DNA from: Bacteroidales bacterium
Lineage (GTDB): Bacteria; Bacteroidota; Bacteroidia; Bacteroidales; WCHB1-69
Length of the DNA stretch: 64,000 nucleotides
Direction of reading: 5' to 3'
NCBI GenBank assembly: GCA_024686335.1
Contig: JAILCI010000012.1
Span: 71,979 to 135,978, forward strand
The translations under genes and the position numbers were made by a program. Each line of letters starts with the position of its first letter. Position 1 is the first letter of the stretch. The notes beneath the pieces are model-generated. The model did no database searches. It had not been told where the DNA came from and was given only the letters and a program-made list of their open reading frames with translations. This document shows positions 5,606-21,009 of the stretch, piece by piece.

Positions 5606-8068
5606 TTATTCTAGGTCGTCTTTCTCTGAATCTCCGTCGCCGCTCTTGCCCTTTGATTCGAGTTCCATCTTACCGAAGCGGAAGGTTATGCCAGCCGAGA
5701 TGAATCGGCTGTTGCGCTTGTTTGTAGAGGTGGAGATGAGATACGGGTTGTTATTCTCACTGGTCGTTTTGTTCCAGTTGAATATATCGTTGACGTTCAG
5801 GTGGATAGATATCTTGCGGTCCAGGAAACTGGCGCGGAGGCCCGCGTCTATGGAGTAGCGTGGTTTCGTGGTGCTGAACAGGGTTATGTTTTTGGACTTG
5901 TAGTTGGCGGAAGCGAAGACCTCCAGGACTTTCCACAGTTTGGCCCAGTAGTTGATACGGAAACTGTAGCCGAGGTTGGAAAACTCGCGCGGGTCACTCT
6001 CGTCGCGAAACTGATAAAGCGAGTGGTCGTAGTAGACGTTGCCATAAAAGCGGATGCTCATGAAGGCTTTGAGACGGTAGGTGACGTTCACTTCTGCACC
6101 GGTGTTGATGGACTTGCCAGCGTTGACGGGCATGGAGAAGGTGACAATGCGCCCGTAGAAGTCGCTGTAGGTGACGTCGTTCAGCGTGGAGACCTTGTTG
6201 TTTGAGTTGCGGAAGTAGGCCGTGACACCCACGGATCCAAACTTGCGGAAGAACTTGGTCCATCCTGCTTCTACAACATTGGTAGGTGATACTAACAACG
6301 CTGGATTTCCGGTGGAGTAGCTGTCTTCGCCATAGTTGATGTAGGTGGAGAGTTGCGAGGCTGAAGGCTGGCTGACACGGCGCGTGTAGCTCAACTTCAG
6401 GTTGTGCATGCTCTTGGTTCTGTAACTCAGATGCAGGGAGGGGTAGAGGCTCCAGTAGGTCTTCTGAACATTGTCAGTCGGAGAGTTGAGAATGTCATAC
6501 TTCTGCGCGTTTATCTCGGAGCGGAGGCCTGCCTTGATGGTGAAACCGCCAAACTTATGCTGAATGGTGACGTATTGTCCGCTTCTCAAGCGTTGAGTTC
6601 GGGAGTCTATAAAGCGGATGGAGTCTAAAACGAAAAGATTGTCAGAAAGATATACGAGTGTGTCTTGGCTGTTCGTTGAACCGTTTTTTGAATAGTTGGC
6701 GCTGACGCCAGCTGAGATTTCTCCGTTTTTATGGTAGGGGATGGAATAGTCGATGCTTCCATTAATATTGTAACTGAAACCACGGTTGGTGTCAAGCCGG
6801 ACTCTGTCCATATAGTCCTGCATGAGATAGTCGCGGTTGTAGGAACCGTTTGACCCGTTAGTGTTGAGGCTGAAGCCTACATTTGCGGTGATTTTATGGC
6901 CTTCTTGCTTGAATTTATGCTCGAACCACATTCCGCCATTACCGCCAAGACTATATGATCTGCTGTCTGACAGAGAGTTGTAGTCAAAGAGCTCCTCAAC
7001 AGGAATCATCTCCAGGCGTATGTCATGAAGTTTGCTGTAGTTCCATCTCATGTTGGGGTTGGAACCAATCCAGAAGCCTAGTGAGTTGGAGCTGTCGATG
7101 GTATAGGTGCCGTGGAAGAAAAGGTTGCCGTTGAGTCTGCGTGTGCGGGAGAAACTGGTGTCGGTCTCCACGCTGGCGGTGTCCATGTCGTCGTTAAAAC
7201 GGGTGAGATAGCTGGTCTTGTTATTTCGCGTGCCAGAGTATCCAGTGTTGAGGTATAGGTTGAGGGAGAGCTTTTTGTTGGCCCATACGTATGAGAACCA
7301 AGGGGAGACATTAGGCCGTGAGGAGCCATTGACGCCGAAGCTGAAGAATTCGTTTTTCTTGATAGCGCTGGTAGTGACGATGTTGATGATGCCGCCGTCG
7401 CTGTTGGTGCCGTATTTAGCGGAGGGGTTTGTGATGACCTCAATACGCGAGATGCTGTTTGCGGGCAGCTGTTGGATGAATTCCTTGAGACTCTCTTCTG
7501 TCAGGTTCGAGGGTTTGTCGTTGAGCCAGATCTCTACGGATGAGACGCCTCGCAGGGTGATGTTGCCCTCGATGTCGACCTCCACGCCGGGAGCGTTCTG
7601 CAGAGCATCGGCGGCGGTACCAGTCTGTACCATCGGGTCCTCATCGACATTATATAGAGTCTTTTCGCCCTCCATCATAAAGAGCGGTTTTTCTGTGGTG
7701 ACGCTCACCTCGCCCAGCATGGTGGCGGCCTTGTGAAGCCAGATTGTACCCATTTGGATGTTACGTTCACTACCATTGACGGCCAAGGAAAGGGTAGGGG
7801 TGTCGTAGCCATAGAGGATTACCTTTAGAAAGTAGTTACCTGCGGGGACATCGTCCAGTTGAAAGTGGCCGTTGCTCTCTGTGTAGGTGACGGCGACATT
7901 GCGCATGGAGGTGTCGGTAGTGGTGAGTACAACTGTTGCGTAGAAGATCTTCTGCCCGTTGGTGGTGTCGCAGACGGTTCCTTGTACACGATAGTCCTGG
8001 GCGTATAGTACTTGAATAGAAAGCAAAAAAGTAGCCAGGAGAACGCTCAATCGAAGAAACTTCATCAT
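5606..8068 (-). CDS. TonB-dependent-receptor-like outer-membrane beta-barrel protein with an N-terminal carboxypeptidase-regulatory-like domain
   Basis: The ORF track extends to 8272, but that extension is the antisense of the tRNA-Leu gene. Start MMKFLRLSVLL.. at 8068/8065 gives a signal peptide. A -7 box lies 19-26 nt upstream. Also present are a CarboxypepD_reg-like 'YRVQGTVCD..GNYFLKV', a plug-like segment, and a C-terminal 'GITFRFG' barrel end. Confidence 0.8.
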   Translation of the reverse strand: MMKFLRLSVLLATFLLSIQVLYAQDYRVQGTVCDTTNGQKIFYATVVLTTTDTSMRNVAVTYTESNGHFQLDDVPAGNYFLKVILYGYDTPTLSLAVNGSERNIQMGTIWLHKAATMLGEVSVTTEKPLFMMEGEKTLYNVDEDPMVQTGTAADALQNAPGVEVDIEGNITLRGVSSVEIWLNDKPSNLTEESLKEFIQQLPANSISRIEVITNPSAKYGTNSDGGIINIVTTSAIKKNEFFSFGVNGSSRPNVSPWFSYVWANKKLSLNLYLNTGYSGTRNNKTSYLTRFNDDMDTASVETDTSFSRTRRLNGNLFFHGTYTIDSSNSLGFWIGSNPNMRWNYSKLHDIRLEMIPVEELFDYNSLSDSRSYSLGGNGGMWFEHKFKQEGHKITANVGFSLNTNGSNGSYNRDYLMQDYMDRVRLDTNRGFSYNINGSIDYSIPYHKNGEISAGVSANYSKNGSTNSQDTLVYLSDNLFVLDSIRFIDSRTQRLRSGQYVTIQHKFGGFTIKAGLRSEINAQKYDILNSPTDNVQKTYWSLYPSLHLSYRTKSMHNLKLSYTRRVSQPSASQLSTYINYGEDSYSTGNPALLVSPTNVVEAGWTKFFRKFGSVGVTAYFRNSNNKVSTLNDVTYSDFYGRIVTFSMPVNAGKSINTGAEVNVTYRLKAFMSIRFYGNVYYDHSLYQFRDESDPREFSNLGYSFRINYWAKLWKVLEVFASANYKSKNITLFSTTKPRYSIDAGLRASFLDRKISIHLNVNDIFNWNKTTSENNNPYLISTSTNKRNSRFISAGITFRFGKMELESKGKSGDGDSEKDDLE

Positions 8069-8086
8069 GTTTGAAAATTTAAGGCG

Positions 8087-8094
8087 CAAAGATA
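8087..8094 (-). promoter_or_regulatory. Candidate Bacteroidetes sigma-A -7 box (TAnnTTTG) for the 5606-8068 gene
   Basis: The plus strand reads caaagata, which is tatctttg on the minus strand, 19-26 nt upstream of the ATG at 8068. Confidence 0.5.
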
Positions 8095-8107
8095 TGTATT
8101 TTTTTCC

Positions 8108-8115
8108 TATTTTTG
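8108..8115 (+). promoter_or_regulatory. Candidate -7 box (TAnnTTTG) for tRNA-Leu
   Basis: tatttttg ends 19 nt upstream of the tRNA 5' end at 8134. Confidence 0.5.
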
Positions 8116-8133
8116 CGCCCTCATTTGAGACCT

Positions 8134-8214
8134 GCGGATGTGGCGTAATGGTAGCCGCGCCAGACTTAGGATCTGGTGGCGAGAGCCGTGGGGGTTCGAG
8201 TCCCCCCATCCGCA
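8134..8214 (+). tRNA. tRNA-Leu (anticodon UAG), class II with long variable arm, CCA not encoded
   Basis: Hand fold. Acceptor gcggatg/catccgc (7 bp). D-stem gcg/cgc with GG in the loop. Anticodon stem ccaga/tctgg with loop c-t-TAG-g-a. 13-nt variable arm (ggc-gaga-gcc). T-arm ggggg-ttcgagt-ccccc. Discriminator A. Confidence 0.9.
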
Positions 8215-8225
8215 CTTTTTGACGA

Positions 8226-8255
8226 GGGTTGACGTGCGTGTCAGCTCTTTTTTTT
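8226..8255 (+). terminator. Rho-independent terminator after tRNA-Leu
   Basis: 8-bp stem (gggttgac / gtcagctc, two G-U pairs), 6-nt loop gtgcgt, then a run of 8 T (8248-8255). Confidence 0.6.
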
Positions 8256-8514
8256 AGTGCGTTTTTTAGCATTATTTTATTTTTTTTCTACGTTTTTCTT
8301 CCTTTGTGAGAGACTGTTTTTCAACAGAAGTAGGCTGTTTTTTGAATTGTTGATATTGTTTATAACATGTATTATCGTAAAAATAATAAAAATTAATACA
8401 CTGTATATCAATATTTTACATAATATTTTGTCATAAAAAGTTATGAACAACGCTATTTAATAACTTTATGTTAAATAGGACCAAATTGGGCAGTGAAATG
8501 GTTAAAAAAAGAAG

Positions 8515-8522
8515 TATTTTTG
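8515..8522 (+). promoter_or_regulatory. Candidate -7 box (TAnnTTTG) for the giant surface-protein gene, implying a ~150-nt 5' UTR
   Basis: tatttttg lies within the AT-rich spacer and is the only exact TAnnTTTG I found between the tRNA terminator and the ATG at 8677. Confidence 0.4.
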
Positions 8523-8676
8523 CAACTTAATTGGATATTGTCCGTATAATCTTGCATTTGGAAAGATTGTGTCCCGAGCCGAAGTACAACTTAGAGTGTG
8601 GAAATGTAGAGGCGAGAGTTGTATGAACGATGACGGGTTTTATAGATTGATTGTAATAAAAATTTAAAATAGTACT

Positions 8677-11600
8677 ATGAAAAACGGTTTACAAAAACAG
8701 ATGAATGAGAAGGCGGTTAACCAAGCCTCTCAAAATGTGATGACCCGACTAGTTCTCTCTATAGGTTTAGTTGTGGCCATTTTGTTTGGATTTAATCTGA
8801 GTGCTTTTGCGCAGAAATCTTGCAAAGTCCAGAGTAACAATCGTGTAATCAGCCTTTCCGTGAAGGGGCAGATGCCTTCCGCAGCTCGAGTGACGGCTAC
8901 TCCCGTACAACGCACTGCCCCGCAGGGTAAGCAATTGAAGGGTGCTTACGACATTACTATCCGCAATGGTAACGCTGAGTGGCAGCCACAATCCGAGCAG
9001 CCAGTGATGGTCTCCATAACGGACCCGTCATTCACCGATGGGGAATTGCTCGACGTGTACCATGAAGGAGTTAATGGTAATGAATTCGTGGCTACTGTCT
9101 CCCCGAATAACCACACCGTCACTTTCCCGGCAAAGTCTTTCTCTGTCTATATTGTAACGGAGAGTGGTGATGGCGCTAGACTTGTGGTGAATTTCCACCA
9201 AAATGCCTCTCAAGTGGTGACTATTTATGTAAAACCCGATGATGTTGGTGAGCAGTTTAACACTATTGTATACGATCCTGGTGTGGGAGAACTTGCTTCA
9301 GGCGTACAGTTTAGAGGTTGGACCGAAGACGCTAATTATGATTCGGAAGACATTGCTAGCGGTATGACTATAGACGGTGTGCGTTCCAAAGTTCAAACCG
9401 TAGTGACTCCCCTGACAAGCAATGACACATTACATTTCTATGCCATGCTCTTCAAGTCCTACGTAGTGACTTATCTTGATGATCGTAATGCCACTTTGGG
9501 ATCTCATGATGTGACTTTCCGTGCGGACGCTACCTCTACAGCCCAAGCCTATGTGGTGAATATGGCTTATACACCACAGGATAACAACCACGCCTTTATG
9601 GGTTGGCTGGCTAACCAAGGAGGTACACATATTGCAGGATGGAGTGAAGGCACTGTATATGCGAATGGTTCAAATATTACCATTAGCGATGATGTGGTGT
9701 TCGGCGTGAATGCTCCTGAAGGCCACTGGTTAGTTTTTGACGAGAATGGCAAGGGAGCCACTTATAATGCACCGCAGTTTGTACAAAGTGGAGCGACTAC
9801 ATCTGAACCGACACTTACCATGGTTCGCAATGGCTACACGTTTGGAGGATGGTATACGGGAGCTCCGACTACACAGGGAGGGGATCCTACCGGATCAACG
9901 TTTACTTTTGGTCAGCAATTGTCCGATTATACCACCATTTATGCTAAATGGAATCCTAGAACTACTGCCAACTACTCTATCATTGTCTGGAAAGAGAATG
10001 TGGCCTGTAATGGTTACGATTTTGAAGAATTAATTACGGCCTCGGGTACAGTAGGTGAAACGATTAATGCTGTTTCAGAACAGGGCACAGGTGACAATGC
10101 GTATGCTAGAATTAATGGTACTAATTACACATATACTGGCTTTCATCTTGATCATTTTGACGAAGACGTAACCATTACAACAGAAGGTGACGCACTGTTG
10201 AATGTGTATTATAAGCGTACCGAATATACGTTGACTTTTAGAGGGAATGTTTATACCTATACTGCCACTACTAACAATAGTGGTACTCAGTATGGTACAG
10301 ATGATGGAAATACCTATTTTCGCATATATCTAAATGATGGTATTTGGTATAGAACCCGTAGTGGTTGGGGGGGTATTTTTGGTTATGATTATTCCGATCC
10401 TTACTATGGTACTCGTTACACCCAAACAGGTCCTTCTACTCAGACGGTTAAAACCATTACCGCTAAGTATGAGCAGTATATAGGAGATAACTTCCCGATT
10501 TCCGGCAATGGTGCTTCTTCAGAATGGAGATGGAAACCTGTGACACCTAATGATGCTGGTTATACTAATGTTTTGGTTTTTATCGATGTAATGCCTGCTG
10601 CTAATGTAACGTTCGACGCAGATGAATCAGATGCATCAACAAAATACATGGAATTCTATGTGGAAGCATTGCCGGGACAGACTGCTGATAGAACGTGGGG
10701 CGGAAGAAGTTTTGTTAAATATGGCAATACAATCCCTGCCAAATACAGCTATTTTACCGAAGATGTGGACTTCCCTGAATTGGTTGGCTATACGAAGTTA
10801 GGTTCCGATCCTGCATTTGATGGTGATGGGGAAGCTCATGTTAGTGCTGGAGGTACACTCTATTTGTATTATGATCGCAATGAATATTCCATTCATTTTT
10901 GGGATGGAGCGTATGTGGGAGGTAACTCAGAACAGGGAGATGCGCTCGAAGGATACGCTTCTCAAAATGAACTTGAAACTGTTGGGGGAAACGCTTATGG
11001 TGCAAATGTCGCTTCATACAATAGCCATCAACCCCCTGCAAATAAAATTCCTACAGGATTTATTTTCGAAGGCTGGTATCTTGATGCAACTTGTACAACT
11101 CCTTATACCTTCACAACTATGCCCGCTAGCAATATGCGTGTTTATGCTAAATGGCGTCAGAAACGTTACCGTGTTTTCTTGCATCCCAATGCCGGTACAG
11201 ACCCGACTTTGGACTGGGGTTCAACAACCCAGCAGATGAATTTTGGTATTCCTAATGGTGGTAAGTTGAGCGCTCCTTATGGTCGCCGTACCGGTTATGA
11301 GTTTGTAGGCTGGTTCTCTGACGAGGCTTGCACTAACAGTTTCAATGCTGATGCTTTTGTGCTGAATGATCAAACTGTGCCAGCATCACCAGCTTATAAT
11401 AAGGAAGTTGATATGACAGATCCTATGAATAAGTGGGGTATTATAGACCCGACTCCTGGTACTAATTCAGATGCCCAGCGTCCTTGGGTTCAGCGTAAGT
11501 TGGATCTATACGCCAAGTGGCGTGCTACTGTAGACGGTGCCACAGGTATTCGAGTGGTCTATGACGCTAATGGCGGACTGCCAGAACCGACAGATCCCCA

Positions 11601-14600
11601 TTTCTATCAGGATAACACGTCTGCTGTTGCAGCTGCTGCTCCTGAAGCCCCGTCTTCTACACAGGTGTTCTCCCATTGGGTGGTGCAGAAATGGAACGGT
11701 ACAACTTATGAGAATACTTCAGTCAATGTATTTCCAGGTGCGCAGTTTACTGTGTTAAAGAATGATGCTTTAGCTGAGGTGACAAAGTGGTGCAAACCAG
11801 ATGGAACAGATACAGTCTCCACTTATGATGAGACGCACACGAAAGTGGCAGAAGCCACCTATACCCTCCAGGTCAAGGCAGTCTATGTGCCGATAGAAGA
11901 AGCCACTCCGACATCTATTATTTGGTACAAGAACGATGGCACATGTTCCATTGTTCAAAATAACGAAAACCTGCTAATTAACCAGGAAGTGGATATTCCC
12001 GCAGCTCCCACCCGTTCAGGTTATAAATTCCTCGGATGGTCTAAACAGACAACAGCATGTACTTCCACTCCTCTAACTATTACGGAATCTGACTTCTTGG
12101 ATTATCATGAGGCCGATGAAACACACGAAAATCCGTATTATACCGCCCACAATGGGACAGACGTTGCTACTCAAGTTGCTGCTGATCAGGCTGATCCTTA
12201 CGAATACCTTTACGCCGTCTGGCAGATTGATGGCTATACAGTCCACTTCGACAAGAATGCTACTGGCGCAACTGGTGATATGGCCGACCAGGGATTTAAT
12301 GTTGGTCAGACAGCCACACTGTCTCCTAATGCCTTTACATATCACTGTCATACCTTCGCAGGCTGGGCAACATCAGCTAACGCTACCACAGCAACCTATA
12401 CGAATGAGCAGTCTGTGACTGATCTTACTACTGCAGGCGAGGAGATCACCCTCTATGCAGTGTGGAACGAATCTCCATTACAATTGACGGTCTCCGATGT
12501 TGCCAACCAGACTTGTGAGAATAAGGGTTCCTTCAAGGTGACCGTTACCAATGGCACTGCTGATTACATCTATAAGTTGAATGGTGAAACTGTAGCAACA
12601 TCGAGCGAATCATACTATACATATAGCAATTTGGAAGCTGATCTTACGACAGAACCTGCTACTGCTAAGACCTATACTGTCTATGTTGAGGATACGTACG
12701 GATGTAATGCCACCACCACCCAAGCCATATCGTTGACTCCTAGCGAGATCACTTTAGAAAACTATTCTGCAACCGTTTGTAGCGGTTATGAATTCTCCTA
12801 TACACCTAGTGAGAATGACGATGTTACCTATTCATGGCCTGCTCCATCCGTGACAGGATTGCAAGCCGTAGCTGCTTCTGATGGTTATGAGGAGTCAGTT
12901 CATGGCACATTGACATTGGCTGAAGGTGAAACCTCTGGTACTGCTGAATTTACCGTTACCCCGAAACTGGGTGTATGTACATTGAATACTGTTACAGTCA
13001 CTGTGGCTGTCACTCTGAATGTTCGTCCTGCCGTGACTATCACACTCACCAATCCTGGCACGACATGTGCCGGCACGCAGGCAACTGTTCAGGCTACGGT
13101 AACAGATGCTCTTGCCAACTCTACACTGACTTGGAAGTTGGGAGAGACTGCTCTTGCCACACAAACCATCACTGCAGCAGGAACATCTACGCTTAGCCAA
13201 ACCTTCAATGTCTCATCGACATGTCCTGATAGCCAGACTCTGTTGGTCACCTATACGGATGCCGCTACTGATGCATGCTCCGCTTCTAAATCTACTGAGA
13301 TCAAAGTTGGTGTTCCCGAATGGAATGTTCCCGCAGCTGGTGCTAAAACCGTTGATTGTGTTTCTGCAGTCATGGAGCCGACATCAGCATTGTCTAATAT
13401 AACCGATCTTTGCAACAATTCTATAGCGCCCGTTCTGAAATCAAGAGTAGCAAATCCAGAGACAATCACATGTACAGGTACGGTTGTCTATACCTACACC
13501 TATACGGACTGTGCCGGTACGTCAAAAGAGTGGACTTATACCTATACTGTGAAGGATACTGTCGCTCCTGTATTGACAATTACAAATACTCCTGCCGCTA
13601 CGGCTGCCGGCTCCTGCCAATACAAGATTCCGACGGTTGCTTACACCGTTGAAGATTGCAACGCTGTGACCGTGACCCAGTCTCCGGCCGCTGACGCGTT
13701 GGTGAACCAGACAGATGCCGAGCAGACTATTACCATCACTTTGACCGCCACAGCTTGTGATAAGGTTTCTACTAAAACCACATCGGTGATTATTCCTGCT
13801 AAACCTAAGATTGATGTTGAGATTGCAGAGAATGTTGAGGTTTGTAATGGCAATTATGTTACTCTAGAGCCTACATGTACTCCTGCCACTCCGACTCCAG
13901 CTTGGCAGTGGTCAGAAGGTTCCAACAATCTGGTTACCACTCAAAATTATACGGTTACTCCTACAGAGAGTAAAACTTATAAAGTGAAAGCCACTGCTAC
14001 TGATGACAACGGCTGTAAGATGGCTGACTCAGCGAATGTGACCGTCACATTACTCCCGTTGCCGTCTCCTTCCATCGCAACTGTTGACCCAGTATGTTCA
14101 GGTTCAACCGTAACGCTAACGGGTTCCTTGTCAGAAGCCACCACCGGATCTTATACCTATACATGGAGTGGCCTTTCCGAGACTCCTATTGTGGAGACTG
14201 TGACTACCACAACGCACACTGTTACCGTGACAGCTCCTACTAAATGTGATTCCACGGTCAGCGTAACCCTTATGGTTGCTGATGGAAAGGGCTGTACGGC
14301 ACAAGCTTCTGGTTCATTCAAGACAAAGAAACCGACACCGGTAATTGCTACTGAATTACCTGAATCTACAAATCTTGAATGTAATCCGACCAACATCCCG
14401 TTTGTTCATGTGACCGATTTTACTGTTACGGACGAATGCAATAGCGCTGCAGTTGTTACGTTAGATTCCACTGTTGCGAGACTCTTCGATTTCTCATGTG
14501 CTTATTATAAACGCTATATTGCGAAGTATACTAGTGAATGTGGCGTGGCAGCGGATTCAGTTATGGTCGCTTACGTTTGGGCGGAGACTGAAGGACCTGT

Positions 14601-17600
14601 CATCACTACCACCGTGGCAGATACTATCTTCAAAGGATGTAATTGGGACAAATCTGATACGGTAACTGCTGCTGATTTTACTGTTACGGACGAATGCCAA
14701 CTGAGTCCCCAAGCCACAGTTATTCATGGTGAAGAGACGACTACAGGATGCAAGAAGAGCCAATCTTGGACAGCTTCTTACACGAATCTGTGTGGTCAGT
14801 CTGCTACAAAGGTAATTACCTATATCTGGACTGCTGATGTAACCGCTCCAGTCATCGGTACTATTGCTGATCAGAATGCTACTCCAGTTGGTAGTGGATG
14901 TATGTATAAGTTGCCTGATCTCGAATCTGCAACCTTGACCGCTACTACAGAAAGCTGTTCTGAGTTGACCTTCGTTAGTCAGAAACCTGCAGCTAACACT
15001 CAATATGAGCAAACAGATGTTCAGCAGATAATTGTAGATACCGTAATTGTGAAAGATGGTTGTGACAATAAGGACACTGCGTTGGTGAATATCATCATTC
15101 CTGCTAAACCTACTATTTCCGTTAATATTGTTGACACTGTGGCTGTATGCGCAGGTGGTTCCGTAATCCTTGCTCCTACTGTCCTTCCTACTACCATGAC
15201 AGCGATGTCAGTTCAATGGTCTTTAGGTACAACTCATGTTTCTGATGAGCCGACACTTACCGTTACTCCTACCGACACAGTTACCTATACTGTTACTATG
15301 ACGGCTAAAGATAATAATGGTTGTGAAGCTACTGCATCTAAGGATGTGACTGTTGCTGTGAATCCTGTTATTGAGGCTGTCATCGATGGCCCTGCTGCAA
15401 TATGTGCCGGTGAGACGGCAGAACTCTCTGTTGCTACCGGTGCAGCTTCTTATGCTTGGGCTAAGGATGGTACTGCATTAACTGAGACTAGCAACAAACT
15501 GTCTGTTTCCGCTGCTGGCACCTATACTGTGACAGTGACTGCAGAGGGTGGATGTATTAGTGTTGGTGAGAAGAGTGTAGTGGTCAACCCGACCTATTAT
15601 ACCGAGGAGACAGCCACCACATGTGCGAACGAGCCGTACACATGGACCAACCACAGCGTGACGATTCCGACAGAGGTTGGCACCCACATTGTATGGGATA
15701 GCCTGACGACCGTGTCAGGATGCGACAGCGTATACAAGCTGACTTTGACAGTCAACCCGACCTATTATACCGAGGAGACAGCCACCACATGTGCGAACGA
15801 GCCGTATACATGGACCAACCACAGCGTGACGATTCCGACGGAGGTTGGCACCCACATTGTATGGGATAGCCTGACGACCAAGTTGGGATGCGACAGCGTG
15901 TACAAGCTGACCCTGACTGTCAACCCGACCTATTATACCGAGGAGACAGCCACCACATGTGCAAACGAGCCTTACACATGGACCAACCACAGTGTGACGA
16001 TCCCGACGGAGGTTGGCGTCCACACAGTATGGGACAGCCTGACGACCAAGTTGGGATGCGACAGCGTGTACAAGCTGACCCTGACTGTCAACCCGACCTA
16101 TTATACGGAGGAGACAGCGTCCACATGTGCAAACGAGCCGTACACATGGACCAACCACAGTGTGACGATTCCGACGGAGGTTGGCACCCACATTGTATGG
16201 GATAGCCTGACGACCGTGTCAGGATGCGACAGCGTGTACAAGCTGACCTTGACAGTCAACCCGACCTATTATACCGAGGAGACAGCCACCACATGTGCGA
16301 ACGAGCCGTACACATGGACCAACCACAGTGTGACGATTCCGACGGAGGTTGGCACCCACATTGTATGGGATAGCCTGACGACCGTATCAGGATGCGACAG
16401 CGTATACAAGTTGACTTTGACAGTCAACCCGATTCCGACGATGACTGTGACGAACGCTTCACAGACTATCACGTATGGTAACGCTATAACTCCTGTTGTT
16501 ATCACGAATACTAATTCTACGCTTGCTGTTACCACGATGCCTACAGGCTTTACATATAACTCCAGCACACAGACAATCACAGCTACTATGCCTAATGCCG
16601 GAACTTATACCATCACGGCTACGGCTACCAGCAATATGACACCTAGCTGCGGAGTTGTTGAGAAAGAGATTAAGATTATCGTGAATAAGGCTAGTTTGAC
16701 AATTTCCGTTGATACTGCTAAGAAGTATGACGGTACACCATTTGTTGTCAACTATAATGCTCCTGCAGTTACTGCTACGGGTCTTGTGACTGGCGATTAC
16801 CTCACTGCTGGTACTATGACTACTGCAGAGGGTACAACTCCGAGCTATAAAGTTGGAACATATACCTATCTTTACTCCCCGTCTTCTATGATGATGAGTG
16901 CTGCACCTGTGACAGGTACATTGCTGAGAAATCCTGATTTCAATACTAATAATGGTATTGAAAACTACAATGTTTCATATGCATTGAAATTGGATATCAC
17001 CTTGCGTACTTTGGACATCACTGCTGATGATGCCACCAAGGTTTACGACGGCACTGCCCTGACTAGCAACGGTTACATGATTGATCCTGTCGACGGTCTA
17101 GCAACTGGCGATGCTGCTACTATCGCACATGCCGGCAGCCAGACCTGCGTGGGCACTTCCGAGCACACCATCGGCGCTGTGGTAGTCATGAAGGACGGCA
17201 CCACGGATGTTACCGACCAGTACACCATCGTACGCCATGCCGGTACTCTGGAGGTGACCAATTTCACAGACTTCACCTGTCCTGCTACCGAGACCGTGGT
17301 GCTGAACTTCGGAGAGTGCGACATTGAGTATACACCGACAAGCACGGCAACAGTAGGTGCGGGTATGACACCAAACAGCTATGTTGTTGCCAATGACTTG
17401 GCAAGCCAGAATCCGCTGACATTGGGAGACCATATCATCACCTGGACATTGTCAGACACTTGCGGCAATGTGATGGCTACATGTCCTCAGACTGTGACAA
17501 TCAGTTTACCGCCATGTCCTCCTGCAACGGATGCTGACGGTATTGAATACGAGAGCGTACGTATCGGCTGCGAGTGCTGGACGAAGACCAACCTCAAGTC

Positions 17601-18096
17601 CGAACATTATACCGGTGGTGCTGACATCCCGGATGTGATGACCTACTACTCACCGCTGTACTACAACGACGAGGCAGCCAACCTGGCTACTTATGGTCAC
17701 CTGTACACATGGGAAGCAGCTATCAATGGCGGAACGACCAACAGCTACGGCCACGTGCCGGGTATCTGTCCCGATGGTTGGTATCTGCCGACCAAGGAGC
17801 AGTACGAAGAGCTGAACTCCTACGGTCCTGACGCTTTGCGTGCTGATATTCTCTGGGCTGACGGTGGCGGTACCAACACCACAGGCTTCACCGGTCTGCC
17901 TGGTGGCAAGTACACCGGCGCTTTAGATCGTTACGAAGACATGACTTTGATGGATTACTACTGGGCAACGACCACCGTTGGTGGCACCGTAATGCCGGTA
18001 GAGGTTGAACTCACCGTCAACTGTCTCCGCGTAACTCAGGTGCTCTCCAGCAATCCTAACGGATACAGTATCAGATGTATAAAAGAGAAGGAATAA
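8677..18096 (+). CDS. Giant (3,139 aa) mosaic cell-surface protein: signal peptide, Listeria-Bacteroides (InlB B-type) repeats, Cys-paired Ig/HYR-like modules, 5x56-aa tandem repeat, MBG-like units, C-terminal FISUMP domain
   Basis: Uninterrupted 9,420-nt ORF with signal-like 'LVLSIGLVVAILFGFNLSAFAQK'. At least 5 units have the G(Y/F)xFxGW...(Y)A(K/V)W signature (~9.8-12.5 kb). 'D(T/V)(V/T)APV' HYR-like modules are at ~13.55 and ~14.84 kb. 'KYDGT'/'KVYDGTALT' MBG-like units are at ~16.7 and ~17.04 kb. The last ~190 aa (IGCECWTKTNL..YGHLYTWEAA..CPDGWYLPTKEQYEEL..GFTGLPGG..YYWATT) match the FISUMP pattern. In-frame ATGs at 8701 and 8740 are alternative starts. Confidence 0.9.
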   Translation: MKNGLQKQMNEKAVNQASQNVMTRLVLSIGLVVAILFGFNLSAFAQKSCKVQSNNRVISLSVKGQMPSAARVTATPVQRTAPQGKQLKGAYDITIRNGNAEWQPQSEQPVMVSITDPSFTDGELLDVYHEGVNGNEFVATVSPNNHTVTFPAKSFSVYIVTESGDGARLVVNFHQNASQVVTIYVKPDDVGEQFNTIVYDPGVGELASGVQFRGWTEDANYDSEDIASGMTIDGVRSKVQTVVTPLTSNDTLHFYAMLFKSYVVTYLDDRNATLGSHDVTFRADATSTAQAYVVNMAYTPQDNNHAFMGWLANQGGTHIAGWSEGTVYANGSNITISDDVVFGVNAPEGHWLVFDENGKGATYNAPQFVQSGATTSEPTLTMVRNGYTFGGWYTGAPTTQGGDPTGSTFTFGQQLSDYTTIYAKWNPRTTANYSIIVWKENVACNGYDFEELITASGTVGETINAVSEQGTGDNAYARINGTNYTYTGFHLDHFDEDVTITTEGDALLNVYYKRTEYTLTFRGNVYTYTATTNNSGTQYGTDDGNTYFRIYLNDGIWYRTRSGWGGIFGYDYSDPYYGTRYTQTGPSTQTVKTITAKYEQYIGDNFPISGNGASSEWRWKPVTPNDAGYTNVLVFIDVMPAANVTFDADESDASTKYMEFYVEALPGQTADRTWGGRSFVKYGNTIPAKYSYFTEDVDFPELVGYTKLGSDPAFDGDGEAHVSAGGTLYLYYDRNEYSIHFWDGAYVGGNSEQGDALEGYASQNELETVGGNAYGANVASYNSHQPPANKIPTGFIFEGWYLDATCTTPYTFTTMPASNMRVYAKWRQKRYRVFLHPNAGTDPTLDWGSTTQQMNFGIPNGGKLSAPYGRRTGYEFVGWFSDEACTNSFNADAFVLNDQTVPASPAYNKEVDMTDPMNKWGIIDPTPGTNSDAQRPWVQRKLDLYAKWRATVDGATGIRVVYDANGGLPEPTDPHFYQDNTSAVAAAAPEAPSSTQVFSHWVVQKWNGTTYENTSVNVFPGAQFTVLKNDALAEVTKWCKPDGTDTVSTYDETHTKVAEATYTLQVKAVYVPIEEATPTSIIWYKNDGTCSIVQNNENLLINQEVDIPAAPTRSGYKFLGWSKQTTACTSTPLTITESDFLDYHEADETHENPYYTAHNGTDVATQVAADQADPYEYLYAVWQIDGYTVHFDKNATGATGDMADQGFNVGQTATLSPNAFTYHCHTFAGWATSANATTATYTNEQSVTDLTTAGEEITLYAVWNESPLQLTVSDVANQTCENKGSFKVTVTNGTADYIYKLNGETVATSSESYYTYSNLEADLTTEPATAKTYTVYVEDTYGCNATTTQAISLTPSEITLENYSATVCSGYEFSYTPSENDDVTYSWPAPSVTGLQAVAASDGYEESVHGTLTLAEGETSGTAEFTVTPKLGVCTLNTVTVTVAVTLNVRPAVTITLTNPGTTCAGTQATVQATVTDALANSTLTWKLGETALATQTITAAGTSTLSQTFNVSSTCPDSQTLLVTYTDAATDACSASKSTEIKVGVPEWNVPAAGAKTVDCVSAVMEPTSALSNITDLCNNSIAPVLKSRVANPETITCTGTVVYTYTYTDCAGTSKEWTYTYTVKDTVAPVLTITNTPAATAAGSCQYKIPTVAYTVEDCNAVTVTQSPAADALVNQTDAEQTITITLTATACDKVSTKTTSVIIPAKPKIDVEIAENVEVCNGNYVTLEPTCTPATPTPAWQWSEGSNNLVTTQNYTVTPTESKTYKVKATATDDNGCKMADSANVTVTLLPLPSPSIATVDPVCSGSTVTLTGSLSEATTGSYTYTWSGLSETPIVETVTTTTHTVTVTAPTKCDSTVSVTLMVADGKGCTAQASGSFKTKKPTPVIATELPESTNLECNPTNIPFVHVTDFTVTDECNSAAVVTLDSTVARLFDFSCAYYKRYIAKYTSECGVAADSVMVAYVWAETEGPVITTTVADTIFKGCNWDKSDTVTAADFTVTDECQLSPQATVIHGEETTTGCKKSQSWTASYTNLCGQSATKVITYIWTADVTAPVIGTIADQNATPVGSGCMYKLPDLESATLTATTESCSELTFVSQKPAANTQYEQTDVQQIIVDTVIVKDGCDNKDTALVNIIIPAKPTISVNIVDTVAVCAGGSVILAPTVLPTTMTAMSVQWSLGTTHVSDEPTLTVTPTDTVTYTVTMTAKDNNGCEATASKDVTVAVNPVIEAVIDGPAAICAGETAELSVATGAASYAWAKDGTALTETSNKLSVSAAGTYTVTVTAEGGCISVGEKSVVVNPTYYTEETATTCANEPYTWTNHSVTIPTEVGTHIVWDSLTTVSGCDSVYKLTLTVNPTYYTEETATTCANEPYTWTNHSVTIPTEVGTHIVWDSLTTKLGCDSVYKLTLTVNPTYYTEETATTCANEPYTWTNHSVTIPTEVGVHTVWDSLTTKLGCDSVYKLTLTVNPTYYTEETASTCANEPYTWTNHSVTIPTEVGTHIVWDSLTTVSGCDSVYKLTLTVNPTYYTEETATTCANEPYTWTNHSVTIPTEVGTHIVWDSLTTVSGCDSVYKLTLTVNPIPTMTVTNASQTITYGNAITPVVITNTNSTLAVTTMPTGFTYNSSTQTITATMPNAGTYTITATATSNMTPSCGVVEKEIKIIVNKASLTISVDTAKKYDGTPFVVNYNAPAVTATGLVTGDYLTAGTMTTAEGTTPSYKVGTYTYLYSPSSMMMSAAPVTGTLLRNPDFNTNNGIENYNVSYALKLDITLRTLDITADDATKVYDGTALTSNGYMIDPVDGLATGDAATIAHAGSQTCVGTSEHTIGAVVVMKDGTTDVTDQYTIVRHAGTLEVTNFTDFTCPATETVVLNFGECDIEYTPTSTATVGAGMTPNSYVVANDLASQNPLTLGDHIITWTLSDTCGNVMATCPQTVTISLPPCPPATDADGIEYESVRIGCECWTKTNLKSEHYTGGADIPDVMTYYSPLYYNDEAANLATYGHLYTWEAAINGGTTNSYGHVPGICPDGWYLPTKEQYEELNSYGPDALRADILWADGGGTNTTGFTGLPGGKYTGALDRYEDMTLMDYYWATTTVGGTVMPVEVELTVNCLRVTQVLSSNPNGYSIRCIKEKE
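15586..16425 (+). repeat. Five head-to-tail 168-bp (56-codon) near-identical tandem repeats, in frame within the giant CDS
   Basis: Unit starts 'aacccgacctattatac' occur at 15586, 15754, 15922, 16090 and 16258, a period of exactly 168 nt. The sixth 'aaccc' at 16426 diverges immediately. The unit is NPTYYTEETATTCANEPYTWTNHSVTIPTEVGTHIVWDSLTT(VS/KL)GCDSVYKLTLTV. Confidence 0.95.
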
Positions 18097-18130
18097 TAAT
18101 CCTTACTTTTCATATAATTTTTTAATTGAT

Positions 18131-18163
18131 GGGAGAATGCTGATAGGCATTCTCCCTTTTTTT
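18131..18163 (+). terminator. Rho-independent terminator after the giant gene
   Basis: Perfect 10-bp stem gggagaatgc / gcattctccc, loop tgatag, then 7 T. Confidence 0.85.
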
Positions 18164-18859: not shown

Positions 18860-20152
18860 TTGTTTAATAAGATTATAAACACTTTCGGCACTAAGATTGC
18901 GGCAGCTGTCATCAATTTTTTGATTGCGGTCGTCATTTCGCAGACATTGGGTGATGTGGGCAAGGGTGTACAGTCTTTGATGCTGACCACCATCACTTTC
19001 ATCCTCATCTTTTCGGAGATTGTTTGCGGCGAAAGCGTGGTCTTTTTGGCATCTCGCCACTCTTTTTCCAAGATTTTCGCACCCTCTATGATATGGGCAT
19101 TCCTCATCTCTCTGGTGATGGGTGCCGGGGTGATGCTCTTCTCTCCCGATGTGTCGACGGATATCGTCATCCACATCGCCGTTCTCTCCTTTATATCTTC
19201 AGCTAGTGCCATCAATTTTCGATTCCTTGTCGGCAAAGAGGAGATAAAAAAGGCAAACTATAACACACTACTACAGCCAGTCCTTATAATCCTGACGATT
19301 TTGGTCTATTATGTGGCTTTGAAGAAGCAGGATATCTATGGATATATAATTGGTCTGTATTTAGCATACGGTGGATCGTTTTTGCTAGGAGTATGGATGC
19401 TGCGTGATGAATATCGACAGTTGCGTCTGTTCTCTATTTCCGAGTATAAAGAGGTGTTGAAAGACCTTTTCAAATATGGATTTCTCAACCAGACGGGTCA
19501 TTTCGTGCAGTTCTTTAATCTGCGTCTGAACTACTATCTGCTTTATGCTTACATGGACGAGGGTAGGGTAGGCATATACTCCAATGCAGTCTCTTTGGCA
19601 GAGGCAATTTGGGTCATCAGTAACAGTATTGCCTTGGTTCAATATGCACGTATCTCGAATTCTGACGACCGTGCCTATAGCCAGCGTCTGACATTGAATC
19701 TCGGTAAGATATGCCTGCTGGTCTCCGCTTGTGCTGTCGTAGTGTTGGCTTTGTTGCCTTCGCCCGTATATCAGTTCATCTTCGGTCCAGAATTTGGCGA
19801 GATGGCCCCAGTGATTCGTATCCTTGCCCCTGGAGTGTTGCTATATTGCATCTTTCTCATCCTTGGACATTACTATTCTGGCATTGGCCGCTATCAGATG
19901 AATACTTTTGCTTCACTCTGCGGACTTGTCGTGACTTTTGCGTTAGGATTTACGCTGATACCGCGCTTCGATATCCAAGGGGCTGCTCTGACTGCTAGTG
20001 TGGCTTATTCCGTCAATGCGTTGTTTTTACTCGTCTTTTTTATCAGAGAGTCTCATTTTCAATGGAGAGACTTGATTCTGACACGAGGAGAAATTTCAAA
20101 TTATATAAAAGAACTTAAATCACATCTGAGTAGTTCTAAAAGCAATATGTAA
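18860..20152 (+). CDS. Polysaccharide/oligosaccharide flippase (Wzx-like, MOP superfamily)
   Basis: 430-aa polytopic membrane ORF whose N-terminus 'NKIINTFGTKIAAAVINFLIAVVISQTLG..GKG' is typical of polysaccharide biosynthesis proteins. The first codon is TTG. An in-frame stop 9 nt upstream leaves no earlier start. Confidence 0.7.
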   Translation: MFNKIINTFGTKIAAAVINFLIAVVISQTLGDVGKGVQSLMLTTITFILIFSEIVCGESVVFLASRHSFSKIFAPSMIWAFLISLVMGAGVMLFSPDVSTDIVIHIAVLSFISSASAINFRFLVGKEEIKKANYNTLLQPVLIILTILVYYVALKKQDIYGYIIGLYLAYGGSFLLGVWMLRDEYRQLRLFSISEYKEVLKDLFKYGFLNQTGHFVQFFNLRLNYYLLYAYMDEGRVGIYSNAVSLAEAIWVISNSIALVQYARISNSDDRAYSQRLTLNLGKICLLVSACAVVVLALLPSPVYQFIFGPEFGEMAPVIRILAPGVLLYCIFLILGHYYSGIGRYQMNTFASLCGLVVTFALGFTLIPRFDIQGAALTASVAYSVNALFLLVFFIRESHFQWRDLILTRGEISNYIKELKSHLSSSKSNM

Positions 20153-20184
20153 ATAGATTATTTGAGCAATTAATATAGGATTTT

Positions 20185-21003: not shown

Positions 21004-21009
21004 CCGGAT

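What the first reader, a model, noticed from the sequence alone, without database searches (positions are those of the whole stretch)
8677..18096. Giant 3,139-aa mosaic surface protein ending in a FISUMP domain, with no recognisable Bacteroidetes anchoring signal
A single uninterrupted 9,420-nt ORF takes up ~15% of the window. By eye it strings together module types that normally occur in different protein classes.
- An SPI-type signal peptide (..NLSAFA/QK), with no Cys at +1.
- At least five Listeria-Bacteroides / InlB-B-type repeats (G[YF]xFxGW ... YA[KV]W) between ~9.8 and 12.5 kb.
- Thr-rich, Cys-paired Ig/HYR-like modules (12.5-15.6 kb).
- Five near-identical 56-aa units.
- Two MBG-like 'YDGT' units (~16.7 and ~17.04 kb).
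- A terminal ~190-aa Fibrobacter-succinogenes-major-paralogous (FISUMP) domain (17.53-18.09 kb: GCECW..NL..YGHLYTW..CPDGWYLPT..EL..GLPGG..YYWATT).

FISUMP domains are usually the body of small lipoproteins, not the tip of a 3,000-aa fibre. The protein ends ..IRCIKEKE with no T9SS C-terminal domain, although two other proteins in this same window (1-2595, 27743-30106) have one. It also has no lipobox. How it is exported, retained and oriented is therefore unexplained. It has its own strong terminator, a long AT-rich leader and a flanking tRNA, which is the profile of an accessory adhesin-like gene.
Basis: partly seen in the sequence, partly recalled or inferred. Interest (0 to 1): 0.7.

Follow-up and report, generated by a model that had tools for sequence, protein, structure and literature searches.

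The report
Giant adhesin-like protein, lectin-type C-terminus
This gene encodes a real 3,139-residue secreted fibre-like protein of an uncultured herbivore-gut Bacteroidales bacterium. It belongs to a large uncharacterised family, and its last ~285 residues form an exchangeable lectin-like module sitting where relatives carry their cell-surface anchor, so how it leaves the cell is still unknown.

Summary
- a signal peptidase I (SPI) signal peptide
- five Flg_new repeats
- HYR_4C/PKD/Ig-like modules
- five ~95%-identical 56-aa units
- a C-terminal FISUMP domain
- no type IX secretion (T9SS) C-terminal sorting domain (CTD) and no lipobox, although the genome has a T9SS (PorZ is in the window)

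MBG is only borderline.

The architecture is not unusual. At least 53 cluster representatives, 1.8-5.4 kaa long, combine the same ~1,200-aa N-terminal head with a terminal FISUMP. Another 27 relatives carry a T9SS CTD instead, never both. Gram-positive relatives end in membrane or LPXTG-type anchors.

The last ~285 aa (HYR-like + FISUMP) form a discrete cassette. It ends many unrelated SPI-signal proteins in rumen Bacteroidales MAGs. Within one genome it can be 88-98% identical at DNA level, from about -850 nt exactly to the stop codon, while the upstream sequence is unrelated.

My reading is a fibrillar adhesin-like protein whose terminal lectin-like cassette is a shared binding or docking module. 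How it crosses the outer membrane is unresolved, and T9SS is the leading candidate only by elimination. It is a new member of a known kind, with a testable question attached.

The parts
8134..8215 (+). tRNA-Leu (anticodon tag), with its own terminator-like hairpin at 8224-8249. It flanks the gene but is not part of it.
   Evidence: ARAGORN; terminator scan.
8515..8522 (+). Bacteroidetes-type -7 box candidate (TATTTTTG) inside the AT-rich leader 8250-8676 (GC 0.276). It would give a ~150-nt 5' UTR.
   Evidence: Pattern match only; leader GC. Function is inferred.
8677..8811 (+). Signal peptide, aa 1-45. It has a long basic n-region, an h-region LVLSIGLVVAILFGF and an AFA|QK signal peptidase I site with Gln at +1. 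There is no lipobox.
   Evidence: Sequence; lipobox rule negative and A-x-A|Q site found. The closest relatives (P0002-P0023) share the MxN.LQ extension.
8812..12462 (+). Conserved N-terminal head, aa 46-1262. It is an array of beta-grasp (Listeria-Bacteroides / InlB B-repeat) and Ig-like domains. Pfam Flg_new stretches lie at aa 354-424, 777-825, ~1083-1132 and 1187-1262, with a weak one at aa 280-336.
   Evidence: Pfam. 31-70% identical in 118 of 119 relatives, including Gram-positive ones. AF2 model of aa 46-800 has pLDDT 85. Foldseek hits are YwfG, SpaC, PitA, poly-ubiquitin/UBL arrays and the InlB B-repeat.
12463..15582 (+). Thr-rich, Cys-paired Ig-like stalk, aa 1263-2302.
- Weak SprB-repeat hit at aa 1273-1303.
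- HYR_4C at aa 1550-1625.
- Ig_7 at 1716-1794, K319L-type PKD at 1809-1877, PKD/Ig_7 at ~2142-2226.
- Internal duplication: aa 1605-1831 resembles 2031-2262, and 1888-1968 resembles 1974-2051.
   Evidence: Pfam; self-comparison; similarity to the Ig-like repeats of the grappling-hook protein GhpA (9flp), E 1.3e-29.
15583..16432 (+). Five tandem 56-aa units (NPTYYTEETATTCANEPYTW...GCDSVYKLTLTV), 92-100% identical to each other. No Pfam model matches. GC3 is 0.70.
   Evidence: TRF: period 168, 5.1 copies, 93%; units listed; no family hit. Most relatives lack the array.
16687..17262 (+). Two MBG/YDG-like stalk units, aa 2671-2776 and 2777-2862.
   Evidence: Unit 2: MBG_2 E 4.1e-5, 24.5 bits (cutoff 25). 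Unit 1: MBG E 0.31. Unit-1-type repeats occur 59 times in 31 relatives, but only 7 of the 21 scanned weakly hit YDG, MBG_2 or MBG.
17254..18096 (+). C-terminal cassette, aa 2860-3139. It holds an HYR-like Ig domain (aa ~2867-2942), a Cys/Pro linker and a FISUMP domain (aa 2954-3136) that ends the protein (..GYSIRCIKEKE*).
   Evidence: PF09603 and TIGR02145 above cutoffs; weak HYR hit; AF2 pLDDT 82.5. The cassette recurs at the extreme C-terminus of unrelated proteins. In other genomes it has a sharp DNA boundary from about -850 nt to the stop.
18131..18156 (+). Intrinsic-terminator-like hairpin (11 pairs, 6 GC, T-run). It faces a convergent one at 18208-18182 that belongs to the DUF1232 gene.
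   Evidence: sequence.

Best explanation
**What it is.** This is a chromosomal, monocistronic gene of an uncultured herbivore-gut Bacteroidales bacterium. It encodes a giant modular fibre of the fibrillar-adhesin kind, and it belongs to a large uncharacterised family that NCBI names 'InlB B-repeat-containing protein'.

**Shown**
- An SPI-type signal peptide with Gln at +1.
- A ~1,200-aa head of beta-grasp and Ig-like domains, shared with Gram-positive relatives ending in LPXTG/membrane-type anchors and with T9SS-CTD Bacteroidales relatives.
- A variable, disulphide-rich Ig-like stalk of the type found in the T9SS giant GhpA.
- A recently amplified array of 56-aa repeats.
- MBG/YDG-like units.
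- A discrete ~285-aa terminal cassette (HYR-like Ig + FISUMP).

**Inferred**
- The protein crosses the inner membrane by Sec and is cleaved by signal peptidase I.
- It ends up outside the cell as an extended fibre.
- The FISUMP cassette is a lectin-like binding module. It sits where relatives carry their anchor and is shared almost identically among unrelated paralogues of one genome. I therefore think it more likely docks the fibre to one common partner (the cell's own surface glycan, a scaffold, or a single dominant substrate) than acts as a diversified host-recognition tip.

**Not shown.** The route across the outer membrane is unknown. By elimination (size, Sec dependence, T9SS present, stalk type), T9SS is the leading candidate at about 0.4. 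That would need a signal not yet recognised.
For: **Family and C-terminal alternatives**
- 403 relatives were found. 53 carry FISUMP and 27 carry Por_Secre_tail; none carries both. Gram-positive members end in LPXTG or TM-type tails.

**Fold of head and stalk**
- The head folds as tandem beta-grasp/Ig domains like the adhesins YwfG, SpaC, PitA and InlB.
- The stalk matches GhpA Ig-like repeats at E 1.3e-29. GhpA is a Sec/T9SS fibre with N-terminal hooks at the end opposite its C-terminal sorting domain (bioRxiv 10.1101/2024.01.29.577165).
- Flg_new and MBG are treated as stalk domains of fibrillar adhesins (bioRxiv 10.1101/2021.12.07.471604).

**FISUMP as an extracellular binding domain**
- FISUMP scores above the curated cutoffs.
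- The literature groups FISUMP and DUF1566 with C-type-lectin-like DGR targets and binding domains (PMC5758913, PMC4159848, PMC11162425).
- FISUMP arrays are followed by a bona fide T9SS CTD in P0131 and P0170, and P0144 and P0232 also combine FISUMP domains with such a CTD. The domain therefore does work outside the cell.

**The cassette as a shared module**
- It ends proteins with unrelated N-termini, all with SPI signals.
- 220 stretches were confirmed in GTDB genomes. The best 80 (79 loci) are all herbivore-gut MAGs, 78 of them labelled Bacteroidales/Bacteroidetes and one Oscillospiraceae, with up to 4 loci per MAG.
- FISUMP identity within a MAG averages 0.62, with several pairs at 0.8-1.0. 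Between MAGs it averages 0.46. The 300 aa upstream are unrelated, at about 0.2.
- In the closest pairs DNA identity runs from about -850 nt exactly to the stop codon.

**T9SS in this genome**
- PorZ and a Por_Secre_tail cargo are in the window.
Against: - No localisation, binding or secretion data exist for any member.
- The lectin fold of FISUMP is not shown here. Foldseek found no match at E<=1e-3 against PDB or BFVD; the best viral hit is a DUF1566 phage protein at E 6e-3. Sequence and profile searches of PDB found nothing.
- FISUMP is a ~190-aa alpha/beta disulphide domain, unlike the 70-100-aa beta-sandwich CTDs.
- FISUMP also occurs in tandem arrays and at N-termini. In some proteins it is followed by a true CTD, which argues that FISUMP alone is not a T9SS signal.
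- Near-identity within a genome could also come from recent module shuffling, or from MAG assembly or binning errors.
- No conserved neighbouring transporter or anchor gene was found.
Confidence: 0.55

Rival explanations
1. The HYR-FISUMP cassette is itself an unrecognised C-terminal sorting signal (a third CTD type). It would direct these Sec-exported proteins through the T9SS and perhaps attach them to the surface. It would functionally replace the Por_Secre_tail of sister proteins.
For: - It is always at the extreme C-terminus, and is mutually exclusive with Por_Secre_tail among proteins sharing the same head.
- It is attached to many unrelated SPI-signal passengers, several per genome.
- It has a discrete module boundary and is homogenised within genomes.
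- T9SS is present here and in at least some genomes of relatives.
- The stalk domains are those of T9SS giants.
- From my own knowledge, T9SS substrates with non-canonical CTDs exist (F. johnsoniae ChiA).
Against: - The fold and size differ from known CTDs.
- No CTD profile hit even at E<=10.
- P0131 and P0170 carry FISUMP arrays and still need a canonical CTD.
- FISUMP is also internal, tandem or N-terminal in many proteins, and literature reports it in lipoproteins (PMC5758913).
- No PorP/PorE-like partner gene lies downstream.
Confidence: 0.2
2. FISUMP is the distal, target-recognising tip: a lectin for plant or host glycans, as in N-terminally anchored FISUMP/DUF1566 lipoproteins and DGR targets. 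The protein is either released into the medium or on vesicles, or is held by its N-terminal part.
For: - FISUMP/DUF1566 domains sit at the exposed C-terminal end of surface lipoproteins such as LdtA, and of Lcl, whose DUF1566-containing CTD binds glycosaminoglycans (PMC5758913, PMC11162425).
- FISUMP has been proposed as a cellulose-binding or cohesin-like module in Fibrobacter (PMC4704652).
- FISUMP domains are passengers on T9SS cargo.
Against: - There is no lipobox or other N-terminal anchor, and the signal has a canonical cleavage site.
- In LPXTG and CTD relatives the shared head is at the free N-terminal end.
- A recognition tip would be expected to differ between paralogues. Instead it is the most conserved and homogenised part.
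- No DGR template copy lies in the window.
Confidence: 0.2
3. The protein is not exported beyond the periplasm. Alternatively the gene is decaying or mis-assembled, for example having lost a downstream CTD.
For: No known outer-membrane sorting signal is present.
Against: - The frame is intact for 9.4 kb with conserved domain boundaries, and more than 50 relatives end at the same ..RC[IV]KE.. position.
- Only 35 nt separate the stop from a strong terminator, leaving no room for a lost CTD.
- The domain repertoire is that of extracellular adhesins.
Confidence: 0.05

Closest known systems
Gram-positive Listeria-Bacteroides-repeat (Flg_new) / MBG fibrillar adhesins with LPXTG or membrane anchors, e.g. 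the Denitrobacterium, Butyrivibrio, Oscillospiraceae and Eggerthellaceae proteins P0080, P0089, P0068, P0110
   Same: They share the ~1,200-aa N-terminal head at 31-49% identity, MBG-type stalk units and giant size.
   Different: They end in LPXTG-type anchors or hydrophobic, charged tails. Acidic or Pro-rich spacers follow the signal peptide. They have no FISUMP.
Bacteroidales ~1,800-aa sister proteins with a Por_Secre_tail (T9SS type A CTD), e.g. P0057, P0061, P0074
   Same: Same head (36-51% identity) and the same SPI/Gln signal type.
   Different: They have a short stalk and a canonical T9SS CTD (PF18962, E 2e-11) in place of the long Ig stalk and HYR-FISUMP cassette.
T9SS giant fibres SprB (F. 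johnsoniae) and GhpA (Aureispira grappling hook, PDB 9flp etc.)
   Same: Sec signal, thousands of residues of Cys-containing, Thr-rich Ig-like repeats (E 1.3e-29 to GhpA), and an extracellular fibre.
   Different: They carry a C-terminal T9SS sorting domain. GhpA has PorP/PorE-like genes downstream. This protein has neither. Oligomeric state is unknown.
FISUMP (TIGR02145/PF09603) and DUF1566 proteins: Fibrobacter paralogous family, Bacteroides lipoproteins, DGR targets such as Legionella LdtA, and the Lcl C-terminal domain
   Same: A terminal FISUMP domain with conserved Cys residues. Literature links the clade to C-type-lectin-like binding folds.
   Different: No lipobox, no DGR template or reverse transcriptase signal in the window, and the domain is appended to a 3,000-aa fibre. 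No structural match to Lcl or other lectins was obtained here.
Shared C-terminal docking or cell-surface-attachment modules of rumen bacteria (dockerins; Ruminococcus albus CBM37). This is a functional analogy from my own knowledge.
   Same: One module sits at the C-terminus of many unrelated secreted proteins of a genome and is kept similar within that genome.
   Different: There is no sequence or fold relationship. The partner is unknown. The passengers here are repeat-rich adhesin-like proteins rather than enzymes.

Membership tests
FISUMP domain (PF09603 / TIGR02145) | Profile match above the curated cutoff over the whole domain | tested here: met
   PF09603: 83.2 bits (cutoff 33.9), profile positions 1-187 of 187, aa 2961-3136. 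TIGR02145: 72.3 bits (cutoff 41.65).
FISUMP domain (PF09603 / TIGR02145) | Conserved cysteines suggesting extracellular disulphides | tested here: met
   Cys are invariant in 18 aligned cassettes: C88, C108, C172, C257 and C275 of the 280-aa segment.
FISUMP lipoproteins (the usual context according to the literature) | Lipoprotein signal peptide (lipobox with Cys at +1) | tested here: not met
   PROSITE-style lipobox rule negative. The AFA|QK SPI site is found instead. No SignalP or LipoP was available.
Listeria-Bacteroides repeat (PF09479 / TIGR02543) | Repeat profile match above cutoff, in several copies | tested here: met
   PF09479: 83 bits (cutoff 27), 5 stretches. TIGR02543: 30 bits (cutoff 20.95).
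HYR_4C (PF23237) | Profile match above cutoff | tested here: met
   74.5 bits (cutoff 27), aa 1550-1625.
MBG / MBG_2 / YDG stalk domains | Profile match above cutoff | tested here: inconclusive
   Unit 2: MBG_2 24.5 bits against 25. Unit 1: MBG E 0.31. Of 21 homologous units, 4 hit YDG, 2 MBG_2 and 1 MBG, all weakly.
T9SS cargo, type A | C-terminal Por_Secre_tail / TIGR04183 domain | tested here: not met
   No hit in the whole protein or in the last 300 aa at E<=10. Positive controls scored E 1e-9 to 1e-16 in the same call.
T9SS cargo, type B (SprB/GhpA-like) | C-terminal CHU_C / TIGR04131 domain and a PorP/SprF-like gene downstream | tested here: not met
   No CHU_C hit. The downstream gene is a convergent DUF1232 gene, followed by flippase, methyltransferase and GT4 genes.
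T9SS cargo (general) | Sec signal peptide, and T9SS machinery in the same genome | tested here: met
   SPI signal. PorZ N-terminal propeller at 27743-30106 and a Por_Secre_tail cargo at 172-2595.
Diversity-generating retroelement (DGR) target | A template repeat similar to the 3' end of the gene, and a reverse transcriptase nearby | tested here: not met
   No second copy of 17401-18150 anywhere in the 64-kb window; best chance hits are <=33 nt. A DGR elsewhere in the genome cannot be excluded.
C-type-lectin-like fold (as for DUF1566 / Lcl-CTD) | Structural similarity to solved CLec-like domains | tested here: inconclusive
   The AF2 model has pLDDT 82.5, but Foldseek finds no match at E<=1e-3. 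The best viral hit is a DUF1566 phage protein at E 6e-3. The two-domain query may have masked it.

The most novel reading that the evidence does not exclude
The ~285-aa HYR-FISUMP cassette is a previously unrecognised C-terminal sorting, anchoring or docking module of herbivore-gut Bacteroidales. It would be an alternative to the T9SS CTD (and to LPXTG in Gram-positive relatives). It would deliver, or tether, a whole set of otherwise unrelated SPI-exported giant proteins to one genome-specific partner, and it is kept uniform within each genome by recombination.
Probability: 0.25. Interest if true: 0.8.

Novelty: new member of a known kind. Interest (0 to 1): 0.45.

Why it matters
Rumen and hindgut Bacteroidales are major plant-fibre degraders, and most of them are uncultured. 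How their giant surface proteins are exported and held is poorly known outside the T9SS-CTD and lipoprotein routes.

This gene is one example of a populous class: SPI signal, no CTD, terminal FISUMP. That class fits neither route. The cassette's behaviour gives a concrete, testable handle on a possible additional surface-display or docking system:
- a fixed position at the C-terminus
- mutual exclusivity with the CTD
- near-identity among unrelated paralogues of one genome
- a sharp DNA boundary at the stop codon

If the cassette is merely a common glycan-binding module, the gene is an ordinary, if very large, adhesin.

Tried and rejected
**DGR target.** FISUMP and DUF1566 are DGR target classes, but no template-like copy of the 3' end exists in the window.

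**Cryptic CTD or lipobox.** Neither was found.

**Lost downstream CTD.** The stop codon is followed within 35 nt by a terminator.

**Solved-structure relatives**
- Nothing for the cassette by sequence, by profile or by Foldseek.
- Nothing for the head by sequence.

**Synteny and strain-specificity**
- Exact-sequence look-ups of the giant protein and of the DUF1232 neighbour found nothing.
- The metagenome scan with the neighbouring outer-membrane protein gave only relatives at <=53% identity (<=46% over the full length). None has a giant gene or a tRNA-Leu next to it.
- The closest giants sit in different contexts.

**Word-indexed homology search with the cassette alone.** It returned only 8 short fragments and was uninformative.

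**O-glycosylation motif D[ST][AILVMT].** 24 sites against ~17.6 expected, which is not a notable enrichment.

**Sigma-70 promoter scan.** No excess over shuffled sequence.

**Enzymatic domain in the head.** None was seen.
Full report
**1. The observation**

The window holds one uninterrupted ORF, 8677..18096 on the + strand, of 3,139 codons.
- The product is Thr-rich (16.1%) with 65 Cys.
- Gene GC (0.471) is close to the rest of the window (0.447). The leader 8250-8676 is very AT-rich, at GC 0.276.
- A tRNA-Leu lies at 8134-8215.
- A strong terminator-like hairpin follows the stop at 18131-18156. It faces a convergent one at 18208-18182.
- A Bacteroidetes-type -7 box (TATTTTTG) lies at 8515-8522. 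This is a pattern match only.

**2. Domain content**

| Feature | Result |
|---|---|
| Flg_new (Listeria-Bacteroides repeat) | 83 bits, 5 stretches |
| HYR_4C | aa 1550-1625, E 8e-21 |
| PKD | above cutoff |
| Ig_7, K319L-type PKD | below cutoff in the whole-protein scan; K319L-type PKD passes in a tile (30.4 vs 27), Ig_7 does not |
| SprB repeat | weak hit |
| Fib_succ_major / TIGR02145 | aa 2954-3136, 3 residues before the end |
| 56-aa units | 168-nt tandem array, 5.1 copies, 93% identical; no family model |
| MBG-like unit 2 | MBG_2 24.5 bits, cutoff 25 |
| MBG-like unit 1 | E 0.31 |

Related units in homologues hit the YDG, MBG_2 or MBG models only weakly.

The stalk contains an internal duplication: aa 1605-1831 resembles 2031-2262.

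**3. Sorting signals**

- The N-terminus has a 24-residue basic n-region, a 15-residue h-region and the site AFA|QK.
- A PROSITE-style lipobox rule is negative.
- Cys49 is part of a mature motif, QK[ST]C, that in relatives lies 4-30 residues after the cleavage site.
- The N-terminal extension (MKN.LQ...) recurs in the closest relatives (P0002-P0023), which supports the upstream ATG as the true start.
- No Por_Secre_tail or CHU_C match exists in the whole protein, or in the last 300 aa at E<=10. Positive controls in the same call scored E 1e-9 to 1e-16.
- The genome has a T9SS. PorZ is at 27743-30106, and a GEVED/CARDB protein with Por_Secre_tail is at 172-2595.

**4. The family**

A homology search gave 403 proteins. 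Residues ~60-1260 are conserved at 31-70% identity in 118 of the 119 other listed proteins. These include Firmicutes and Actinobacteria proteins that end in LPXTG-type or hydrophobic anchors.

Among the Bacteroidales members:
- 53 representatives (1.8-5.4 kaa) carry FISUMP. In all that I mapped, it ends the protein.
- 27 representatives (~1.8 kaa) carry the T9SS CTD instead.
- None carries both.

All Bacteroidales members have x-[AG]|Q signals.

Identity along the protein is discordant:
- P0014 and P0025 are closest in the head (66-70%) but far in FISUMP (33%).
- P0026, P0027, P0029 and P0034 are closest in FISUMP (69-73%) but only 50-53% in the head.

GC3 also varies along the gene: 0.36-0.38 in the Flg and Ig parts, 0.70 in the 56-aa repeats and 0.62 in FISUMP. 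Nine other genes of the window range from 0.46 to 0.69. The protein is truly mosaic, but the mosaic is a recurrent design rather than an oddity.

**5. Structure**

- Head, aa 46-800: pLDDT 85. It is all-beta with occasional helices. It matches tandem beta-grasp or Ig adhesins (YwfG, SpaC, PitA), poly-ubiquitin/UBL arrays and the InlB B-repeat. There is no enzyme-like domain.
- Stalk: matches the Ig-like repeats of the grappling-hook protein GhpA at E 1.3e-29. GhpA is a Sec/T9SS fibre with a C-terminal sorting domain and PorP/PorE-like partner genes.
- Terminal 280 aa: pLDDT 82.5. It models as an Ig-like domain plus an alpha/beta domain. No significant structural or sequence relative was found in PDB or BFVD. 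The best viral hit is a DUF1566 phage protein at E 6e-3.

The link of FISUMP to C-type-lectin-like binding domains therefore rests on the literature (PMC4159848, PMC5758913, PMC11162425).

**6. The C-terminal cassette**

A full scan of 1.84 billion representatives with the FISUMP domain found 24,379 proteins at E<=1e-3. The ranking favours multi-copy proteins. Of the 148 best representatives that I mapped:
- 126 end in a FISUMP within 25 residues of the C-terminus, typically ..SVRC[LIV][KR][DN]*. Many have 3-12 tandem copies.
- Of 109 with an N-terminal h-region, 86 have an x-[AGS]|Q site and one has a lipobox candidate.
- Several have a canonical T9SS CTD downstream of their FISUMP domains; in P0131 and P0170 it directly follows the array. 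FISUMP can therefore be a passenger on T9SS cargo.

The specific HYR+FISUMP cassette of this protein (42-76% identity) ends proteins with quite different N-terminal parts.

In GTDB genomes:
- 220 stretches were confirmed. The best 80 (79 loci) are all from herbivore-gut MAGs (yak, buffalo, sheep, goat, deer, horse); 78 are labelled Bacteroidales or Bacteroidetes and one Oscillospiraceae. There are up to four loci per MAG.
- 37 complete ORFs have diverse N-termini, mostly with [AG]|Q-type SPI signals, and most stop at or within a few residues of the FISUMP.
- Within a MAG the FISUMP domains are more alike (mean 0.62, several pairs 0.8-1.0) than between MAGs (0.46). The 300 residues upstream are unrelated, at about 0.2.
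- At DNA level, similarity starts about 850-870 nt before the stop and, in the closest pairs, ends exactly at it. For example L040/L043 are 98% identical over 868 nt.

The cassette is thus a discrete, exchangeable module that is homogenised within genomes.

**7. Context and taxon**

- Neighbours of the gene:
  - upstream, divergent: a TonB-dependent-receptor-like outer-membrane protein;
  - downstream, convergent: a DUF1232 gene;
  - then a MurJ-like flippase, a methyltransferase and a GT4 glycosyltransferase.
- Homologue loci have different neighbours and no conserved transporter.
- A housekeeping gene (glycogen debranching enzyme) has best hits of 88%, 85% and <=79%. All named hits are 'Bacteroidales bacterium' MAGs.
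- The best cassette hit in GTDB is 69%.
- The organism is therefore an uncultured Bacteroidales lineage. It is probably from a herbivore gut, and it is not demonstrably Prevotellaceae.
- Strain-specificity could not be tested.

**8. Interpretation**

I read the protein as a fibrillar-adhesin-like fibre exported by Sec/SPI.

Two facts argue against a diversified recognition tip and for a module that binds one common partner. First, the cassette occupies the position of the anchor in LPXTG and CTD relatives. Second, unrelated paralogues of a genome share it almost unchanged. The partner could be self surface glycan, a scaffold or a single substrate. This resembles the logic of dockerins or R. 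albus CBM37 (my own knowledge, not tested).

The outer-membrane step is not explained. T9SS is the only known Bacteroidota route for Sec-dependent fibres of this size, and it is present here. But FISUMP differs in fold from known CTDs, and some FISUMP proteins still carry a CTD.

I give:
- about 0.55 to the adhesin-with-shared-binding-module reading;
- about 0.2 to the cassette being a true sorting signal;
- about 0.2 to a distal lectin tip on a released or otherwise-held protein;
- about 0.05 to non-export or an artefact.

**9. Novelty**

NCBI already names relatives 'InlB B-repeat-containing protein', and JGI names them 'TIGR02145/TIGR02543 family'. The protein is a new member of a known, uncharacterised kind. 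What deserves follow-up is the cassette's behaviour, which I did not find described in the papers searched.

Noticed in passing
window 27743-30106 (-) and 172-2595 (+): 27743-30106 encodes PorZ, with the T9SS attachment-complex N-terminal beta-propeller (E 5e-25). It is a machinery component rather than ordinary cargo. 172-2595 encodes a GEVED + CARDB protein with a Por_Secre_tail (E 1.3e-9). Together they show that the genome has a T9SS.
   Followed up: partly
window 8677-18096, by segment: Third-position GC differs strongly along the gene: Flg block 0.36, Ig stalk 0.38, N-terminus 0.45, 56-aa repeats 0.70, FISUMP 0.62. Nine host genes range from 0.46 to 0.69. This suggests that the head and stalk have a different origin from the 3' modules, possibly transfer from low-GC Firmicutes relatives.
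   Followed up: partly
L040/L043/L047 (MAG CAMVBK01), L042/L046 (OMYJ01), L032/L029 (JAFXTE01): Unrelated genes of one MAG share the last ~850-1,100 nt at 88-98% DNA identity, ending exactly at the stop codon. There is no similarity upstream or downstream. This points to gene conversion or cassette exchange of the C-terminal module.
   Followed up: yes
window 15583-16432; also P0207, P0247, P0223, P0268, L008, L010, L025: The 56-aa unit belongs to a widespread 'C..Y.W....G.Y.....GCDS.V.L.LTV' repeat type for which I found no Pfam or NCBIfam model. It is common in proteins that carry the same C-terminal cassette. Here it is a recent five-fold amplification that most relatives lack.
   Followed up: partly
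P0121-P0133 and many others: Proteins of 1,000-6,000 aa carry 3-12 tandem FISUMP domains, have SPI/Gln signals and end precisely at ..SVRC[LIV][KR][DN]. This is a large class with the same unexplained export problem.
   Followed up: partly
window 18860-22158 (+); L002-L004 25060-32690: Surface-polysaccharide-type genes lie just downstream of the giant gene. Here they are a MurJ-like flippase, a methyltransferase and a GT4 glycosyltransferase. In the P0011 loci they are Bac_transf, a DegT-type aminotransferase and an epimerase. This may be coincidence, but it is relevant if the cassette binds the cell's own glycan.
   Followed up: no
window 8677-8748; P0002-P0023 N-termini: The signal peptide has a conserved ~20-25-residue N-terminal extension (MKN.LQ..K.V.N.A..) before the usual n/h/c regions, i.e. 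an extended signal peptide of unknown significance.
   Followed up: no
window 5606-8272 (-): The mechanical ORF for the TonB-dependent-receptor-like protein (OMP_b-brl_3, Plug, CarboxypepD_reg) runs across the tRNA-Leu gene. Its real start must lie downstream of about 8060, since Pfam domains begin at ORF residue 96.
   Followed up: no
L002-L004 9861-9962 (302-403 in L004): A 33-codon ORF is called immediately upstream of the 4,769-aa homologue P0011 in three independent contigs. No equivalent was examined in the window's leader.
   Followed up: no
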